61,473 nucleotides of DNA from a virus. Positions 1-61,473 of this stretch are shown here, one piece after another (position 1 is the first letter of the stretch; every line of letters begins with the position of its first letter). The stretch lies in IMG/VR virus record IMGVR_UViG_3300035534_000060; one strand, 5' to 3'. A model generated the notes under the pieces. The model saw only the letters and a program-made list of their open reading frames with translations. It was not told where the DNA came from and did no database searches. A program made the position numbers and the translations under genes.

Positions 1-294
1 GCCAATGAAAAAGTATAGTGATGAAGATTTGATCGATATTATGGCACAGGTAGCCATAGAATTGGGAAGAACACCAAGGATGCAGGATATGCTAAATAGG
101 AAAGGTGGGCCATATCCATCACTTTAGCTACTAACAGCACTGGTTAACGTCTGGAAATTTAGAAAAGTTGCCGGACAATGCACTGAATGCGCATTTTTTG
201 ATAGTGCAAAGGGTGTGTGTATATATTACGATGATGGAGAATGTAAAGAAGATTGTGATAATTTCAAAATGTTAAAACGAGGAGGAGAAAATTA
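1..294 (+). repeat. Duplicated terminal mosaic: 1-127 copies 300-426; 128-294 is a slightly diverged copy of 61245-61411
   Basis: Direct comparison by eye; the second part differs at about 5 positions yet keeps an open frame (F->V, I->V, Y->D relative to the 61127..61411 protein). Confidence 0.85.
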
Positions 295-660
295 ATGCCG
301 CCAATGAAAAAGTATAGTGATGAAGATTTGATCGATATTATGGCACAGGTAGCCATAGAATTGGGAAGAACACCAAGGATGCAGGATATGCTAAATAGGA
401 AAGGTGGGCCATATCCATCACTTTATCAGAAGCGTTTTGCATCTAAGAAAGGTGTTGAGGATGGATGGAACAATGCAGTCAAACTTGCTGGATTGGATTA
501 CAACAGGAAAAAACCTGATCAAGAAGGTGAATGTGGTGATTGTGGAGTAAACGGATACACTACAAATGGTCGCCTCATTAGATGGAGAGGTGGAAAAGAA
601 ATAGTGTGTTTAGCATGTTATGCTAAACGATATTATCGACAGTTTAGAAAAGATACATAA
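295..660 (+). CDS. Protein with HNH/homing-endonuclease-associated HTH-like repeat and C-terminal Cys-rich zinc ribbon
   Basis: GGAGG SD upstream; motif DLIDIMAQVAIELGRTPRMQDM...YQKRFAS; C-terminal CGDCG...CLAC; paralog of 1644..1949. Confidence 0.5.
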   Translation: MPPMKKYSDEDLIDIMAQVAIELGRTPRMQDMLNRKGGPYPSLYQKRFASKKGVEDGWNNAVKLAGLDYNRKKPDQEGECGDCGVNGYTTNGRLIRWRGGKEIVCLACYAKRYYRQFRKDT

Positions 661-682
661 AGTATTTTTTTTATACCCATTC

Positions 683-702
683 AAAATAGTAACCTTTATA
701 TA
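683..702 (+). promoter_or_regulatory. Archaeal BRE/TATA promoter (AAAATAGTAACCTTTATATA) for 748..1182
   Basis: A-rich BRE-like stretch followed by TTTATATA about 45 nt upstream of SD+ATG; part of an 85-bp cassette repeated at 2806 and 50612. Confidence 0.55.
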
Positions 703-747
703 ATATAGGTGTGTACTAAGAGTATCAAGTAAATAAGGAGGAATAAT

Positions 748-1182
748 ATGGATTTACAAGAAAATGTGTACAGAGCAAGACATATAGTGGCAGATTGTAT
801 CACTGATGCCATCAATATTAGAATGACTGATAAACCATTCACTATTGATTTTGATGAGTTGAAGATGCACATCAATGATAGAGTGCCTGAATATCGTATC
901 TATGTTGCATTGGGCGCACTCGAAAGAATTGGTGTGATAGAATTTGATGAAGAGAATTTACTTATCAGAGTTAATTACAATTTCATCTATGGGTATAGAG
1001 ATAGTGTTAAAAGGCGCTGGTATGATGAATATGAAGGAAAACCGATAATGGAGAAACTTGATGATATAAAATCGGTACAAGATAAAAATGATTTCAATGT
1101 AATGGATGATTTCACCTGCCAACAATACATGTATATTATAGGCAGGCTTGATCAACAATTATTTTCGGCGGGGTATCTATGA
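748..1182 (+). CDS. Hypothetical protein
   Basis: 144-aa ORF with AAGGAGG SD and upstream promoter cassette; no recognisable motif. Confidence 0.5.
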   Translation: MDLQENVYRARHIVADCITDAINIRMTDKPFTIDFDELKMHINDRVPEYRIYVALGALERIGVIEFDEENLLIRVNYNFIYGYRDSVKRRWYDEYEGKPIMEKLDDIKSVQDKNDFNVMDDFTCQQYMYIIGRLDQQLFSAGYL

Positions 1183-1457
1183 AACAGAGAAATTTGGAAT
1201 TTATGAAAATGTGTAATGCCGCAGATGAATTGAAAGATGACCTTGGGGCTGGCCCATGGTCATTTGATGAAATGGAATTGTATGCATCTACAAAAGGATT
1301 TAATAGATGTCATTTAGAGAACCTTTTGTTCAACATGCAAACTCTTTTGGGGCAGACATACCCAGAGATTAATACGGGGCGCAAATTGCTTCTATGTTTT
1401 ATCATGAAAGAGCAGTATGGAAAAACATGGAATGGCCATATGTGGATACAGGAGTAA
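1179..1457 (+). CDS. Hypothetical protein
   Basis: 92-aa ORF overlapping the previous stop by 4 nt (ATGA). Confidence 0.4.
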   Translation: MKQRNLEFMKMCNAADELKDDLGAGPWSFDEMELYASTKGFNRCHLENLLFNMQTLLGQTYPEINTGRKLLLCFIMKEQYGKTWNGHMWIQE

Positions 1458-1462
1458 AAATA

Positions 1463-1618
1463 ATGGCATGGTATGAAGCGAAATATGAATTAACTGCTAC
1501 ATTTGAATCTGAGTCTATGGATGACGCACTCGAATATGCAGATGATATACCCATACCTTTAGATGGTGAATATACTGTACAAGAAATGACATTAGTACAT
1601 GTATTAGAAATGGATTAA
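1463..1618 (+). CDS. Small acidic hypothetical protein
   Basis: ATG at 1463 just after the previous stop; the track ORF 1394..1618 uses an internal overlapping start. Confidence 0.3.
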   Translation: MAWYEAKYELTATFESESMDDALEYADDIPIPLDGEYTVQEMTLVHVLEMD

Positions 1619-1643
1619 TCCAATAAATAAAAGGAGTGATTAT

Positions 1644-59441: not shown

Positions 59442-59449
59442 GGTGGCAC

Positions 59450-60070
59450 ATGGATGTTCACCTTTTCTTTTTAAGAGATCAAATTCTTGTACGTGGGTAC
59501 GGAATAGTAGATAATGAAGGCCTTGAAAATCTCAGAGATGATTTAACATCAGGCCTTTTTGTAGTGCGCAAGAGCCAAGATAATGAATTTGTGGTAAAGG
59601 TAAATATTTGTTTAGAGGAGGAGATAAAGAAACTTATTGAGAAAGATTCTAAAAATTTAGCAACTAAAGTTTACAAACTTACTAAGACCAGAGAACCAGA
59701 TGTAGCCGATGGGCTGGTTAAAAGAATTTTAAAATTGTTTTCTCAGCCTAAATGGAATCAGGCATCATGGATACATATGCTTAAAACAGGCGTATATTAC
59801 ACATATGCTGCTGATAGCAATGTTATGCTGGACTATCTTGTATGGGATGGCAAATTAGAATATGAATCGTATGGCACATATTGTATATCATCTGAATTTA
59901 TGTCAGCCATTTTGAACAAAGATAAAGTTTATTTTAGTTGGTTGTCTAAATATTTAGATTGTAAAGATGAGAAAGCAATAGATATATTCATGACACACCA
60001 TGGATATGATAAACATGGGAGTAGTTATACGAAAAAACAAAGTGAACCAATTGGATTTATCATACAATAA
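59450..60070 (+). CDS. Hypothetical protein
   Basis: 206-aa ORF. Confidence 0.4.
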   Translation: MDVHLFFLRDQILVRGYGIVDNEGLENLRDDLTSGLFVVRKSQDNEFVVKVNICLEEEIKKLIEKDSKNLATKVYKLTKTREPDVADGLVKRILKLFSQPKWNQASWIHMLKTGVYYTYAADSNVMLDYLVWDGKLEYESYGTYCISSEFMSAILNKDKVYFSWLSKYLDCKDEKAIDIFMTHHGYDKHGSSYTKKQSEPIGFIIQ

Positions 60071-60133
60071 TAGAAACCTTTATATAGTCTTAAACCTATA
60101 TAGAGAATACTAACATAACAAAGGAGGAATATT

Positions 60134-60502
60134 ATGGAAACAAAACAATCATTAGAAGAACTCGTAGATAGATGTGCAAGACTTAAAGCCGCAAAGGATG
60201 CAGCAGACGCAGCATACAAGAAGGCTAAGAGTGAACTCGAAACAATCTGTGATGAACAAAGAATCACTGAACTTAATACTGGATTGTATAATGTGTCTAT
60301 CAAAAAGCAGCACAGATTCAGAAAGTACCGTGATGAAAATGTTGTAATCCAGATGATACCCGAAAAACTTCGGGGTGATGTGATGAGTCTTGATCGTAAA
60401 AAGGTTAATGGGCTTGTTGATGCAGGCATTCTTCCAGAGGAAATAAAGGGCGAGGAAATGTACAGTGAGATAACCAATACAACCATTAGGGAGGCTAAAT
60501 AA
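60134..60502 (+). CDS. Hypothetical protein
   Basis: 122-aa ORF with SD and AATAGAAACCTTTATATA promoter. Confidence 0.45.
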   Translation: METKQSLEELVDRCARLKAAKDAADAAYKKAKSELETICDEQRITELNTGLYNVSIKKQHRFRKYRDENVVIQMIPEKLRGDVMSLDRKKVNGLVDAGILPEEIKGEEMYSEITNTTIREAK

Positions 60503-60577
60503 TGCCCCCCTAAAAAGAATAAAGAGCCCAAAAAACCTGCACTCATCATACCATTAACCACTAAAGAATTTCCAAGA

Positions 60578-60832
60578 GTGGAAGTATTTATTGATAACTT
60601 GAGTGCAAGTGTGGGTATAAAAAAGAAGAAGGATGATACAAATTGTAGTATTCAAAAATTCTGCTCTAATACACCTGAAGGAATTTTGAAAACTCTTGAC
60701 AAAGTGATGTTTACTCAAAAATTGAATAAGGCAACCAAGGAAAATTATAATTCCACATTTGAAGAGTTTATGGAACTTGTGAAAGAGCACAACAAGTTTA
60801 TGGAAGATTTGGCTAAGGAGGTAAAGAAATGA
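60578..60832 (+). CDS. Hypothetical protein
   Basis: 84-aa ORF. Confidence 0.35.
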   Translation: MEVFIDNLSASVGIKKKKDDTNCSIQKFCSNTPEGILKTLDKVMFTQKLNKATKENYNSTFEEFMELVKEHNKFMEDLAKEVKK

Positions 60833-61146
60833 AAGATGAATATAATTCTTTTGATGTATTTTTAAGCAACATGCGAGCCGAACATGATAAGTTGGGCGCA
60901 AAGAAAGGTTATCATATGCTGCATGATGCCACATTGAGTGAAGCATGGGAAGAATGGGCAGCCAATGTACAGGATGCTATTTCTGGGGCAAATCCTCAGA
61001 TAATAAAAAATGAGATGGTAAAACTTGCCAATAAATGCATGTATGTGCATGAAATGCTTGAACGTGAGGATAACAAGAGTGCTGCATACAAATTGGCAGA
61101 AGCCCGCAAAGAGAGAATGAATAGTTTTGAGCCCCGGAGGGTATGA
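60829..61146 (+). CDS. Hypothetical protein
   Basis: 105-aa ORF overlapping the previous stop. Confidence 0.4.
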   Translation: MKDEYNSFDVFLSNMRAEHDKLGAKKGYHMLHDATLSEAWEEWAANVQDAISGANPQIIKNEMVKLANKCMYVHEMLEREDNKSAAYKLAEARKERMNSFEPRRV

Positions 61147-61411
61147 TATGAATGATGATATGTTTACAGCAATAATAGTAGGTATAGTTTTTATACTAAG
61201 TATCTTTTTTCCAATCATAGGCACATTGTTCTTGGCAGTAATGCTACTAACAGCACTGTTCAACATCTGGAAATTTAGAAAAGTTGCCGGACAATGCACT
61301 GAATGCGCATTTTTTGATAGTGCAAAAGGTGTGTGTATATATTACTATGATGGAGAATGTAAAGAAGATTGTGATAATTTCAAAATGTTAAAACGAGGAG
61401 GAGAAAATTAA
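61127..61411 (+). CDS. Membrane protein with C-terminal Cys-rich zinc-binding-like tail
   Basis: Hydrophobic N-terminal half; C-terminal CTECAFFDSAKGVCIYYYDGECKEDC; 3' part duplicated at 128-294. Confidence 0.45.
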   Translation: MSPGGYDMNDDMFTAIIVGIVFILSIFFPIIGTLFLAVMLLTALFNIWKFRKVAGQCTECAFFDSAKGVCIYYYDGECKEDCDNFKMLKRGGEN

Positions 61412-61473
61412 TGCCGCCAATGAAAAAGTATAGTGATGAAGATTTGATCGATATTATGGCACAGGTAGCCATA
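61411..61473 (+). repeat. Exact copy of 295-357 (start of the 295..660 gene)
   Basis: Identical sequence at window end and at 295-357; implies circular or terminally redundant genome. Confidence 0.85.

What the first reader, a model, noticed from the sequence alone, without database searches (positions are those of the whole stretch)
1..61473. Near-absence of TAG as a stop codon across the genome
Reading the stop codon of each candidate gene by eye gives about 60 TAA, about 33 TGA and only 2 TAG among about 95 genes. Both TAG cases are ORFs that look truncated on independent grounds (the endoV-like fragment at 3433..3639 and the fibre gene at 36248..37780). In an AT-rich genome TAG would normally be a common stop. 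Such avoidance fits hosts in which UAG is ambiguous or reassigned, and it supports the sense-codon reading of the fibre TAG.
Basis: partly seen in the sequence, partly recalled or inferred. Interest (0 to 1): 0.65.

Follow-up and report, generated by a model that had tools for sequence, protein, structure and literature searches.

The report
Virus adapted to pyrrolysine-decoding methanogen
This 61-kb genome is a tailed virus of a methanogenic archaeon (probably Methanohalophilus) whose cells read TAG as the rare amino acid pyrrolysine; the virus has almost stopped using TAG to end genes. The one TAG in a large gene lies inside its tail-fibre gene at a position kept in distant relatives, so it is most likely translated rather than a stop.

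Summary
My own gene calls give TAA 51, TGA 31 and TAG 4 among 86 genes, and TAG 1 of 56 among genes of at least 100 aa. TAG makes up 21% of off-frame stop triplets.

The window is an archaeal tailed virus. It has an archaeal-type replication set, BRE/TATA-like promoters, and a terminase closest to those of archaeal viruses. It carries an IS605/TnpB element that is 82-87% nucleotide-identical to chromosomal copies in Methanohalophilus. That genus decodes TAG as pyrrolysine and is listed among the 'Genetic Code 34' lineages.

The fibre TAG (37778-37780) is in frame with a 130-codon extension.
- The same TAG column is kept in two other fibres that are only 33-40% identical.
- The extension is as conserved as the main body of the protein.
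- 74 cellular GLUG proteins align straight across the TAG position.
- A sister strain with a swapped fibre carries a different in-frame TAG.

Close relatives also lack TAG stops (4/110 genes). Distant relatives use TAG normally (23/158).

The best reading is that the virus has adapted to its host's TAG-to-pyrrolysine decoding. Pyrrolysine incorporation itself is inferred, not shown.

The parts
1..61473 (.). Whole viral genome (one circular unit is about 61,116 bp). Stop usage is TAA 51, TGA 31, TAG 4 in 86 called genes. It has no tRNA genes.
36248..37777 (+). Tail-fibre gene, part before the TAG (510 codons, GLUG repeats).
   Evidence: Pfam Glug match. Exactly the same 510-aa product occurs in independent assemblies.
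37778..37780 (+). In-frame TAG codon 511 of the fibre gene, proposed to be a pyrrolysine codon.
   Evidence: The column is invariant in the window, L087 and L088 fibres. 96 BLASTP HSPs from 74 cellular GLUG proteins span it by at least 25 aa on each side.
37781..38173 (+). 130-codon extension in the same frame, ending in TAA. It holds the GRT..GWD..DD.W..P.LRWL linker motif and then a small beta-helix-cap-like C-terminal domain.
   Evidence: It is 39-51% identical among the three viruses. An exhaustive HMMER search finds 546 relatives, and the same domain ends other small proteins. No SD precedes the internal candidate starts at 37838 and 37856; 37880 has only a distant 4-mer GAGG; all three lie after the conserved residues.
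11597..11773 (-). 58-aa coiled-coil-like gene, the only other plausible intact gene ending in TAG. Read-through would add 27 codons, up to the TGA at 11513-11515.
   Evidence: The gene, its TAG and its extension are identical in sister strain L094.
3433..3639 (+). Truncated pyrimidine-dimer glycosylase (Pyr_excise) fragment ending in TAG; a likely pseudogene.
   Evidence: Pfam E = 1.8e-11, matching profile positions 1-55 of 81 only. Read-through adds 18 unrelated codons.
3706..5034 (+). IS605-family element carrying tnpB (3837..4925). This is the link to the host. The doubtful TAG-ending ORF 3689..3835 lies in its left end.
   Evidence: Pfam OrfB_IS605, Cas12f1-like_TNB and HTH domains. TnpB is 84-88% aa identical, and the element 82-87% nt identical, to Methanohalophilus chromosomal copies. 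It is in the same 90% cluster as Methanohalophilus proteins.
28355..31219 (+). Paralogous 954-aa GLUG protein in the same genome. It reads straight through the equivalent linker (G-E-P-R-T-T-A-E-M, twice).
   Evidence: Pfam Glug match. A Glu aligns opposite the fibre TAG, but only weakly, E = 0.05. The repeat was found (D9).
1..126 (.). Assembly-end duplication (identical to 300-425) that creates the spurious TAG-ending ORF 5..127.

Best explanation
The window is the genome of a tailed virus that infects a pyrrolysine-decoding methanogen of the family Methanosarcinaceae, most likely Methanohalophilus or a close relative.

In such cells a charged tRNA-Pyl competes with, or replaces, termination at UAG. 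A viral gene ending in TAG would therefore be extended, and selection has removed TAG from termination positions in this virus clade. This mirrors what has happened in the host genomes.

The TAG inside the tail-fibre gene is not a terminator. The host's Pyl machinery translates it, and the virus encodes no tRNA of its own. The product is a 641-residue fibre in which the GLUG-repeat body is joined to a conserved C-terminal domain.

Shown here: the stop-codon statistics, the conservation of the TAG and of the extension, the continuity of homology across the TAG, and the similarity of the IS element to Methanohalophilus copies. Inferred: the identity of the host, that the inserted residue is pyrrolysine, and how efficient the decoding is.
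For: 1. TAG depletion at stops.
- TAG ends 4/86 genes overall and 1/56 genes of at least 100 aa, against a 20.6% share among off-frame stop triplets.

2. The depletion is specific to this clade.
- The window, virus B (L088+L091) and L086 together have 4/110 TAG stops, and two of those four are the fibre TAG.
- Seven more distant relatives have 23/158. There TAG ends portal, terminase and head genes.
- Fisher P = 0.002, or P = 0.0002 without the fibre TAGs.

3. Archaeal virus.
- The large terminase subunit (TerL) is closest to those of Methanofastidiosa and haloarchaeal viruses.
- It encodes PolB, an RFC small subunit, an AEP primase and an XPD-like helicase.
- The motif AAATAGAAACCTWTATATA occurs 13 times against 0.14 expected, nearly all in the intergenic stretch just upstream of a called gene start.

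4. Host.
- TnpB is 84-88% aa identical, and the IS element 82-87% nt identical, to Methanohalophilus chromosomal copies. Methanolobus (about 77% aa), Methanosarcina (about 70%) and Methanococcoides (about 67%) follow.
- A crude sample of host genes gives TAG stops in 1/45 (Methanohalophilus) and 1/26 (Methanococcoides), against 19/70 in bacterial control loci.
- Literature: Methanohalophilus has tRNA-Pyl (PMC6491703). It is among the Code 34 genera (10.1101/2024.09.30.615893). Pyl+ Methanosarcinaceae have a median of 4.9% TAG stops (PMC12626013).

5. The fibre TAG.
- It occupies the same column in three fibres that are 33-40% identical, while synonymous sites next to it differ.
- The extension is 39-51% identical among the three.
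- Invariant G-R-T, D, D and W residues lie between the TAG and the first possible start codon.
- 96 HSPs from 74 cellular GLUG proteins span the TAG, and the residue opposite it varies.
- The TAG is identical in independent assemblies and in a 99.9%-identical strain.

6. A second in-frame TAG.
- Sister strain L099 has a replaced fibre gene of 507 codons with one in-frame TAG at codon 83.
- The downstream part has no SD of its own.
- A CBM96-type profile aligns across the TAG in a single domain.

7. None of the TAG read-throughs creates a long out-of-frame overlap.
Against: - The host rests on one mobile element plus general archaeal features. No CRISPR spacer or provirus link was obtained, and a scan of 185,579 species genomes with the head-protein profile found no provirus.
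- There is no direct evidence that pyrrolysine, or any amino acid, is inserted.
- No conserved RNA structure follows the TAG. The consensus energy is -3.3 kcal/mol and the window's z-score is 0.19. PYLIS is reported to be dispensable, so this is neutral.
- TAG is the rarest stop codon in many prokaryotes. Against a 10% baseline this genome alone gives only P = 0.01-0.06.
- One plausible 58-aa gene still ends in TAG.
- My sample of host genes is small and lies next to IS elements. It gave 12% TAG for Methanolobus and 23% for Methanosarcina.
- The CBM96 match in L099 is weak (18.9 bits), and Pfam itself reports nothing.
- Only three lineages of this fibre are known.
Confidence: 0.7

Rival explanations
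1. The TAG scarcity is ordinary. TAG is the least-used stop codon in many prokaryotes and their viruses, and the count here reflects general compositional or release-factor bias. On this view the fibre TAG is a true stop, and the downstream ORF is a separate small gene or a decaying remnant.
For: - Against a 10% baseline the deficit is only marginal, P = 0.01-0.06.
- The TAG triplet is under-represented genome-wide: 903 and 774 on the two strands, against 1670 and 1058 for TGA.
- Public gene callers annotate the downstream piece as a separate ORF of 105-136 aa.
Against: - Off-frame TAG is still 21% of stop triplets.
- Relatives of the same family use TAG for 15% of stops.
- The in-frame arrangement and the TAG itself are kept in three fibres that are 33-40% identical.
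- Conserved residues lie before any usable start codon, and that candidate start (ATG 37856) has no SD.
- The extension is as conserved as the fibre body, so it is not decaying.
Confidence: 0.1
2. The fibre TAG is read through, but not as pyrrolysine. Either a near-cognate or other suppressor tRNA decodes it, or the host has reassigned TAG to a standard amino acid.
For: - Nothing in the sequence identifies the inserted residue.
- No PYLIS-like structure is present.
- The residue opposite the TAG in homologues is variable, so any amino acid would be tolerated.
Against: - The only host lineage supported by the data is Methanosarcinaceae, where the known UAG decoder is tRNA-Pyl (PMC6491703; PMC12626013).
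- The virus has no tRNA gene.
- TAG-to-Gln recoded phages show many in-frame TAGs and a large gain in coding density. Here there is one in-frame TAG and a gain of 0.7%.
Confidence: 0.08
3. The in-frame TAGs are recent nonsense mutations or assembly errors, that is, pseudogenes in defective genomes.
For: - The fibre region is a rearrangement hotspot. IS-end remnants and a 480-bp indel lie at 38201 in sister strains.
- The L099 allele is known from one contig only.
Against: - The window's TAG is identical in at least four independent assemblies.
- It occupies the same column in two distant lineages.
- There are no further stops in the 130 codons (window) or 424 codons (L099) after the TAG.
Confidence: 0.03

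Closest known systems
Pyl-decoding archaea with few TAG stops, including 'Genetic Code 34' lineages (Kivenson et al., bioRxiv 10.1101/2024.09.30.615893; Borrel et al. 2014, PMC4153887)
   Same: - The TAG stop frequency is low, at 5% or less.
- There is an internal TAG with homology on both sides ('Category 1').
- No TAG read-through creates a long out-of-frame overlap.
- The inferred host genus, Methanohalophilus, is one of the listed genera.
   Different: - This is a virus, not a cell, and it encodes none of the Pyl machinery.
- The preprint does not mention viruses.
- Here the internal TAG sits in a virion receptor-binding protein and is conserved across divergent viruses.
Ambiguous UAG decoding in Methanosarcina acetivorans (PMC12626013), where RdmS is made in a short and a long form
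   Same: A single UAG at a domain boundary could give a truncated product and a Pyl-containing full-length product. The ratio would be set by Pyl-tRNA supply.
   Different: No protein data exist for the virus. The early TAG in the L099 fibre allele argues for efficient sense decoding rather than a 50:50 split.
Stop-codon-recoded bacteriophages (TAG or TGA reassigned, e.g. crAss-like and Lak phages; recalled from memory: Ivanova 2014, Borges 2022)
   Same: A virus whose reading of a stop codon differs from the standard table, with the recoded codon lying in a late structural gene.
   Different: - Those phages carry many in-frame recoded stops, so coding density jumps on recoding.
- They often encode suppressor tRNAs or release factors.
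- They typically differ from their host's code.
- Here there is one in-frame TAG per genome, a density gain of 0.7%, and no tRNA, and the virus follows its host's code.
Programmed stop-codon read-through extensions of viral structural proteins (Q-beta A1, luteovirus CP-RTD; recalled from memory)
   Same: An in-frame conserved C-terminal extension of a virion protein lies behind a single conserved stop codon.
   Different: - Those are RNA viruses that use near-cognate tRNAs and leaky contexts or RNA structures.
- Here it is a dsDNA archaeal virus, no conserved structure follows the TAG, and a dedicated host tRNA is the likely decoder.

Membership tests
Genome adapted to TAG=Pyl decoding (criteria of Kivenson et al. 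for Code 34-type genomes) | Low frequency of TAG-terminated genes (5% or less) | tested here: met
   TAG ends 4/86 genes (4.7%) and 1/56 genes of at least 100 aa.
Genome adapted to TAG=Pyl decoding (criteria of Kivenson et al. for Code 34-type genomes) | Category 1 gene: an internal TAG, similarity to known proteins before and after it, and an extension of more than 15 aa | tested here: met
   The fibre extension is 130 aa. 96 HSPs from 74 GLUG proteins span the TAG. Identity is 22-31%, at or just below the paper's cut-off of more than 30%.
Genome adapted to TAG=Pyl decoding (criteria of Kivenson et al. for Code 34-type genomes) | No Category 4 cases (TAG read-through giving an out-of-frame overlap of more than 60 nt) | tested here: met
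   Read-through extensions are 3, 18, 27 and 130 codons. Overlaps with the next gene are 11 nt or less, or in frame.
Genome adapted to TAG=Pyl decoding (criteria of Kivenson et al. for Code 34-type genomes) | Pyl machinery (pylT, pylS, pylBCD) available in the translating cell | not testable with these tools
   The virus has no tRNA gene, and none of the roughly 45 products scanned (all those of 240 aa or more) matched a PylRS or release-factor family. The host is only inferred. Methanohalophilus genomes carry tRNA-Pyl according to PMC6491703.
Genome adapted to TAG=Pyl decoding (criteria of Kivenson et al. for Code 34-type genomes) | Pyl detected at TAG positions by proteomics | not testable with these tools
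   This needs mass spectrometry of virions or infected cells.
Stop-codon-recoded phages (code 15 or code 4 type) | Marked gain in coding density (above 5-10%) when the stop codon is read as sense | tested here: not met
   Density goes from 0.897 to 0.904 with TAG as sense, and falls with TGA or TAA as sense.
Stop-codon-recoded phages (code 15 or code 4 type) | Virus-encoded suppressor tRNA | tested here: not met
   ARAGORN finds 0 tRNA genes and Rfam finds no match.
Programmed read-through extension of a virion protein | A conserved in-frame ORF behind a conserved stop codon, under protein-level constraint | tested here: met
   The TAG column is invariant and the extension is 39-51% identical in three lineages.
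Programmed read-through extension of a virion protein | A stimulatory RNA structure or leaky context downstream of the stop | tested here: inconclusive
   There is no conserved structure. The base after the TAG is G in all three, but the conserved Gly codon forces that.
Programmed read-through extension of a virion protein | Both the short and the long product are made | not testable with these tools
   This needs protein data.
Archaeal tailed virus (Caudoviricetes) of Methanosarcinaceae | Host link by CRISPR spacer, provirus or isolate | tested here: inconclusive
   No provirus was found, and spacer matching is not possible with these tools. The host is inferred from the IS element.

The most novel reading that the evidence does not exclude
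The conserved fibre TAG may act as a translational switch. The host's Pyl-tRNA supply, which depends on whether the methanogen is growing on methylamines, would set the ratio of short (510 aa) to long (641 aa, Pyl-containing) fibre. The make-up of the virion's adsorption apparatus would then be coupled to the host's metabolic state.

This would be the first pyrrolysine-containing viral protein and the first programmed stop-codon read-through in an archaeal virus.
Probability: 0.25. Interest if true: 0.9.

Novelty: new variant of a known kind. Interest (0 to 1): 0.72.

Why it matters
Pyrrolysine decoding and the proposed archaeal 'Code 34' have so far been described for cells only.

- A 2026 survey of 3,708 archaeal viral genomes found none using a non-standard code (PMC13465236). 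It relied on a coding-density test that cannot see a case like this one.
- A review of recoding in archaea lists only frameshifting for archaeal viruses (PMC8211752).

This genome suggests three things.
1. Viruses of Pyl-decoding methanogens track their host's code. TAG-stop frequency could therefore serve as a host-prediction signal.
2. Standard code-11 annotation splits their receptor-binding genes.
3. A virion protein may contain pyrrolysine.

It also gives a simple natural test case for a disputed question: whether UAG in these archaea is fully reassigned or ambiguous.

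Tried and rejected
Searches that found nothing:
- Megablast of 9 kb of the window, and tblastn of the fibre C-terminus, against GenBank phages found no match.
- The first word-indexed protein search with the fibre junction found nothing.
- Scans of IMG/VR and of JGI metagenomes for the fibre or its extension found nothing.
- A scan of GTDB species genomes with the head-protein profile found no provirus.
- An Rfam scan of the window found nothing.

- The read-through sequence containing X could not be submitted to the exhaustive search or to structure prediction.
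- A cluster member from a sister strain could not be looked up.
- The Medvedeva et al. 2023 paper on viruses of methanogens is not in the held library.

Results that did not hold up or were unusable:
- AlphaFold on the extension alone gave pLDDT 48 and was not used further.
- A PYLIS-like structure after the TAG is not supported.
- I first assumed the IS insertion had truncated the endoV-like gene at its TAG. In fact the IS left end starts about 67 nt after that TAG.
- Pfam and NCBIfam did not recognise a CBM96 domain in the L099 fibre. Only a custom profile did, and weakly.
- I first used the 440-aa protein at 21481..22803 as 'major capsid protein'. The HK97-fold capsid gene is actually 23270..24148. 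The 440-aa protein is best called a head-module marker, probably a protease or scaffold protein.

Rejected explanation: genome-wide recoding of TGA or TAA, because coding density falls under both.

Full report
**What the window is.** The window is 61,473 bases at 35.8% G+C. Its ends overlap: 127-357 equals 61243-61473, and 1-126 duplicates 300-425. One genome unit is therefore about 61.1 kb, and the first 126 bases are an assembly artefact. It encodes:
- a large terminase subunit (17790..19292);
- an HK97-fold capsid protein (23270..24148);
- a tape-measure-like minor tail protein, a baseplate protein of the Prophage_tail family, and two GLUG-repeat proteins;
- family B DNA polymerase, an RFC small subunit, an AEP primase, an XPD-like helicase, class II ribonucleotide reductase, a Dam methylase and RecU.

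The terminase is closest to those of viruses assigned to Methanofastidiosa and of haloarchaeal tailed viruses. The 19-nt motif AAATAGAAACCTWTATATA occurs 13 times against 0.14 expected, nearly all in the intergenic stretch just upstream of a called gene start, and it looks like an archaeal BRE/TATA promoter. The genome has no tRNA gene and no Rfam match. I conclude that it is an archaeal tailed virus.

**Checking the observation.** A self-trained gene caller gives 87 ORFs of at least 40 aa, with TAA 51, TGA 31 and TAG 5.
- One TAG ORF (5..127) is created by the end duplication.
- Two are dubious or defective: the Pyr_excise fragment 3433..3639, and a 48-aa TTG ORF (3689..3835) in the left end of an IS element.
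It has a good SD, and a sister strain keeps it with the same TAG.
- One is the fibre gene.

Among genes of at least 100 aa, TAG ends 1 of 56, and that one is the fibre. Inside the same genes TAG makes up 20.6% of off-frame stop triplets, so the deficit at real stops is significant. The binomial P is 3e-5 to 4e-6, and the TAG:TGA ratio test gives P = 0.004. Against a generic 10% baseline the deficit is marginal (P = 0.01-0.06), and it fits a 4.9% expectation. Reading TAG as sense raises coding density only from 0.897 to 0.904. Reading TGA or TAA as sense lowers it. This is therefore avoidance of TAG, not genome-wide use of TAG as a frequent sense codon.

**The host.** The gene at 3837..4925 is a TnpB (OrfB_IS605).
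- A scan of one genome per prokaryotic species found its best relatives in Methanohalophilus euhalobius and Methanohalophilus sp. RSK (84-88% aa identity).
- Methanolobus (about 77%), Methanosarcina (about 70%) and Methanococcoides (about 67%) follow. Bacterial copies are at 55% or less.
- At the DNA level the whole element (about 3706-5034) is 82-87% identical to chromosomal copies in Methanohalophilus sp. RSK, M. profundi and M. euhalobius.
- The protein shares a 90% cluster with NCBI proteins from Methanohalophilus sp. T328-1 and M. euhalobius.

An IS element can only jump into a viral genome inside a shared cell, so this points to Methanohalophilus or a close relative as host. It remains a single line of evidence.

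Published work fits this host.
- Methanohalophilus genomes carry tRNA-Pyl (PMC6491703).
- Pyl+ Methanosarcinaceae use TAG for a median of 4.9% of stops, and M. acetivorans reads UAG both as stop and as Pyl (PMC12626013).
- Methanosarcina uses TAG for about 4-5% of stops and 'Ca. M. alvus' for 1.6% (PMC4153887).
- Methanohalophilus is among eight genera inferred to read every TAG as Pyl, the proposed 'Genetic Code 34' (10.1101/2024.09.30.615893).

My own crude count on the fetched host loci gave TAG stops in 1/45 genes (Methanohalophilus) and 1/26 (Methanococcoides), against 19/70 in bacterial control loci. The Methanolobus and Methanosarcina samples were higher and are small.

**The fibre TAG.** The fibre ORF 36248..37780 ends in TAG, and the same frame stays open for 130 more codons up to the TAA at 38171-38173.
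- An exhaustive HMMER search with the 130-aa piece found 546 relatives. Two of them are small ORFs of 136 and 132 aa.
- Both of these lie directly behind a GLUG fibre gene on contigs L087 and L088. L088 is syntenic with the window.
- In both, the upstream fibre ends in TAG at exactly the same aligned position, and the small ORF is in the same frame. The three junctions read ...SAASG-TAG-GRTSTEI...ANNSY-TAG-GRTTAQM and ...ASNAY-TAG-GRTTAEM.
- The three fibres are only 33-40% identical before the TAG and 39-51% identical after it. Synonymous positions next to the TAG differ, yet the TAG column and the following G-R-T are invariant.
- In the window the first possible start codon after the TAG is 20 codons downstream. 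The candidate starts at 37838 and 37856 have no SD and 37880 has only a distant 4-mer GAGG, and all lie after several invariant residues. Those residues can therefore only be made by reading through the TAG.
- 74 of 117 cellular GLUG proteins give BLASTP alignments that cross the TAG by at least 25 residues on each side. The residue opposite the TAG is variable (T, E, I, V, S and others) within the common motif ..SAGG-x-GKTTAEM..GWDF..W..YPYL.
- The paralogous 954-aa GLUG protein of the same genome has Glu at that spot, though the alignment is weak.
- The C-terminal roughly 85 residues of the extension also end a family of small CBM96-containing proteins, so the extension is a real domain and not a truncated remnant.
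- The exact 510-aa product and its TAG recur in independent assemblies and in a 99.9%-identical strain.
- No conserved RNA structure follows the TAG. This agrees with reports that PYLIS is not needed.

**A second in-frame TAG.** A sister strain, L099, is 95-99% identical on both sides of the fibre region, but its fibre module has been replaced. IS-end remnants sit at the junction. The replacement gene is 507 codons long with a single in-frame TAG at codon 83. Under code 11 it falls into an 82-aa ORF and a 384-aa ORF, and the second has no SD. A profile built from CBM96 domains of related small proteins aligns residues 6-179 as one domain across the TAG. The score is 18.9 bits, which is weak, and Pfam itself reports nothing. 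If real, a stop so early in the gene would be useless, which argues that the host decodes TAG efficiently.

**Comparison with relatives.** Using the head-module protein 21481..22803 as a marker, I fetched seven more distant relatives.
- These use TAG for 23 of 158 stops, including portal, terminase and head genes.
- The window, virus B (L088+L091) and L086 together have 4 of 110, two of which are the fibre TAG.
- Fisher P = 0.002, or P = 0.0002 without the fibre TAGs.

TAG avoidance is therefore a derived trait of this clade and not a property of the viral family.

**Interpretation.** The best explanation is adaptation to a host that translates UAG as pyrrolysine. TAG has been purged from stop positions, and in-frame TAGs in fibre genes are translated by host machinery. 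I put this at about 0.7.

The stop statistics, the conservation of the TAG and the extension, the homology across the TAG, and the IS similarity are shown. Host identity, the nature of the inserted residue and the decoding efficiency are inferred.

The position is variable in cellular homologues, yet the TAG is retained in three diverged lineages. That hints at selection on the TAG itself, possibly to make both a short and a long fibre as M. acetivorans does for RdmS. The early TAG in L099 points instead to plain sense decoding. This question stays open.

**Novelty.** The Code 34 preprint and the PNAS paper on ambiguous UAG do not mention viruses. A survey of 3,708 archaeal viral genomes found no alternative code, using a coding-density criterion that this case cannot trigger. 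A review of archaeal recoding lists only frameshifting for archaeal viruses. Searches for 'archaeal virus' together with 'pyrrolysine' found nothing relevant. The held library is incomplete; for example, the Medvedeva 2023 paper on viruses of methanogens is not held. I therefore rate this as a new variant of known kinds, combining Pyl decoding with viral stop-codon recoding or read-through.

Noticed in passing
window 3706-5034: A complete IS605-family element with tnpB only and no tnpA. It is 82-87% nucleotide-identical to Methanohalophilus chromosomal copies. Sister strains L094 and L099 carry only the two end fragments (matching about 3709-3795 and 4919-5021) at other places, like miniature derivatives.
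   Followed up: partly
window 7093-8406: A 1.3-kb stretch without genes that is packed with iterons. It has six copies of TTAAAAATCGTGA (7683-7818), three tandem 20-nt palindromic units ATGTACACATCTGTACATTG (7866-7925), and many GTTAACGGCGTTAAC repeats. It is probably the replication origin.
   Followed up: partly
window 684-702, 2825-2843, 8221-8239, 8314-8332, 8974-8992, 10686-10704, 21433-21451, 44707-44725, 45084-45102, 50634-50652, 55522-55540, 60068-60086 (+) and 8197-8215 (-): The 19-nt motif AAATAGAAACCTWTATATA occurs 13 times against 0.14 expected, nearly all in the intergenic stretch just upstream of a called gene start. It is likely an archaeal BRE/TATA promoter. Three copies (8218-8294, 8311-8387, 8971-9047) are followed by a G+C-rich hairpin (GGCC.GGGGCGGCC) and might give small RNAs.
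   Followed up: partly
window 38201; L092 5955-6432; L099 5195-7240: The point just after the fibre extension is a rearrangement hotspot. One strain has a 480-bp insertion there. Another has the whole fibre module swapped, with IS-end remnants at the junction.
   Followed up: partly
window 3032-3062 and 3455-3485: The first codons of the Pyr_excise fragment (ATGAGGATGTGGAATAT..) are repeated 423 nt upstream, just before gene 3066..3308. This suggests a duplication or rearrangement that left the glycosylase gene truncated.
   Followed up: no
window 47430-47984 and 48490-49110: Two neighbouring genes are paralogues, 76-87% nucleotide-identical over three blocks at a spacing of 1114 nt.
   Followed up: no
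window 56073-58307: The ribonucleotide reductase is 744 aa here but 1,154 aa in the 60,475-bp sister genome, within the same 90% cluster. The longer form may contain an intein or another insertion.
   Followed up: no
window 28355-31219: A second GLUG-repeat protein (954 aa) with long internal repeats: 28475-28635 against 29660-29820, and 28957-29032 against 30223-30298. It lies upstream of the minor tail protein.
   Followed up: partly
window 1-126: The first 126 bases duplicate 300-425 and are then joined to a copy of 61243-61473. This is an assembly chimera at the contig end, and it fabricates a TAG-ending ORF at 5..127.
   Followed up: yes
loci L008-L061 (Methanolobus): In my crude calls, 10 of 22 TnpB genes in the Methanolobus loci end in TAG, while none of the Methanohalophilus, Methanosarcina or Methanococcoides copies do.
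   Followed up: no
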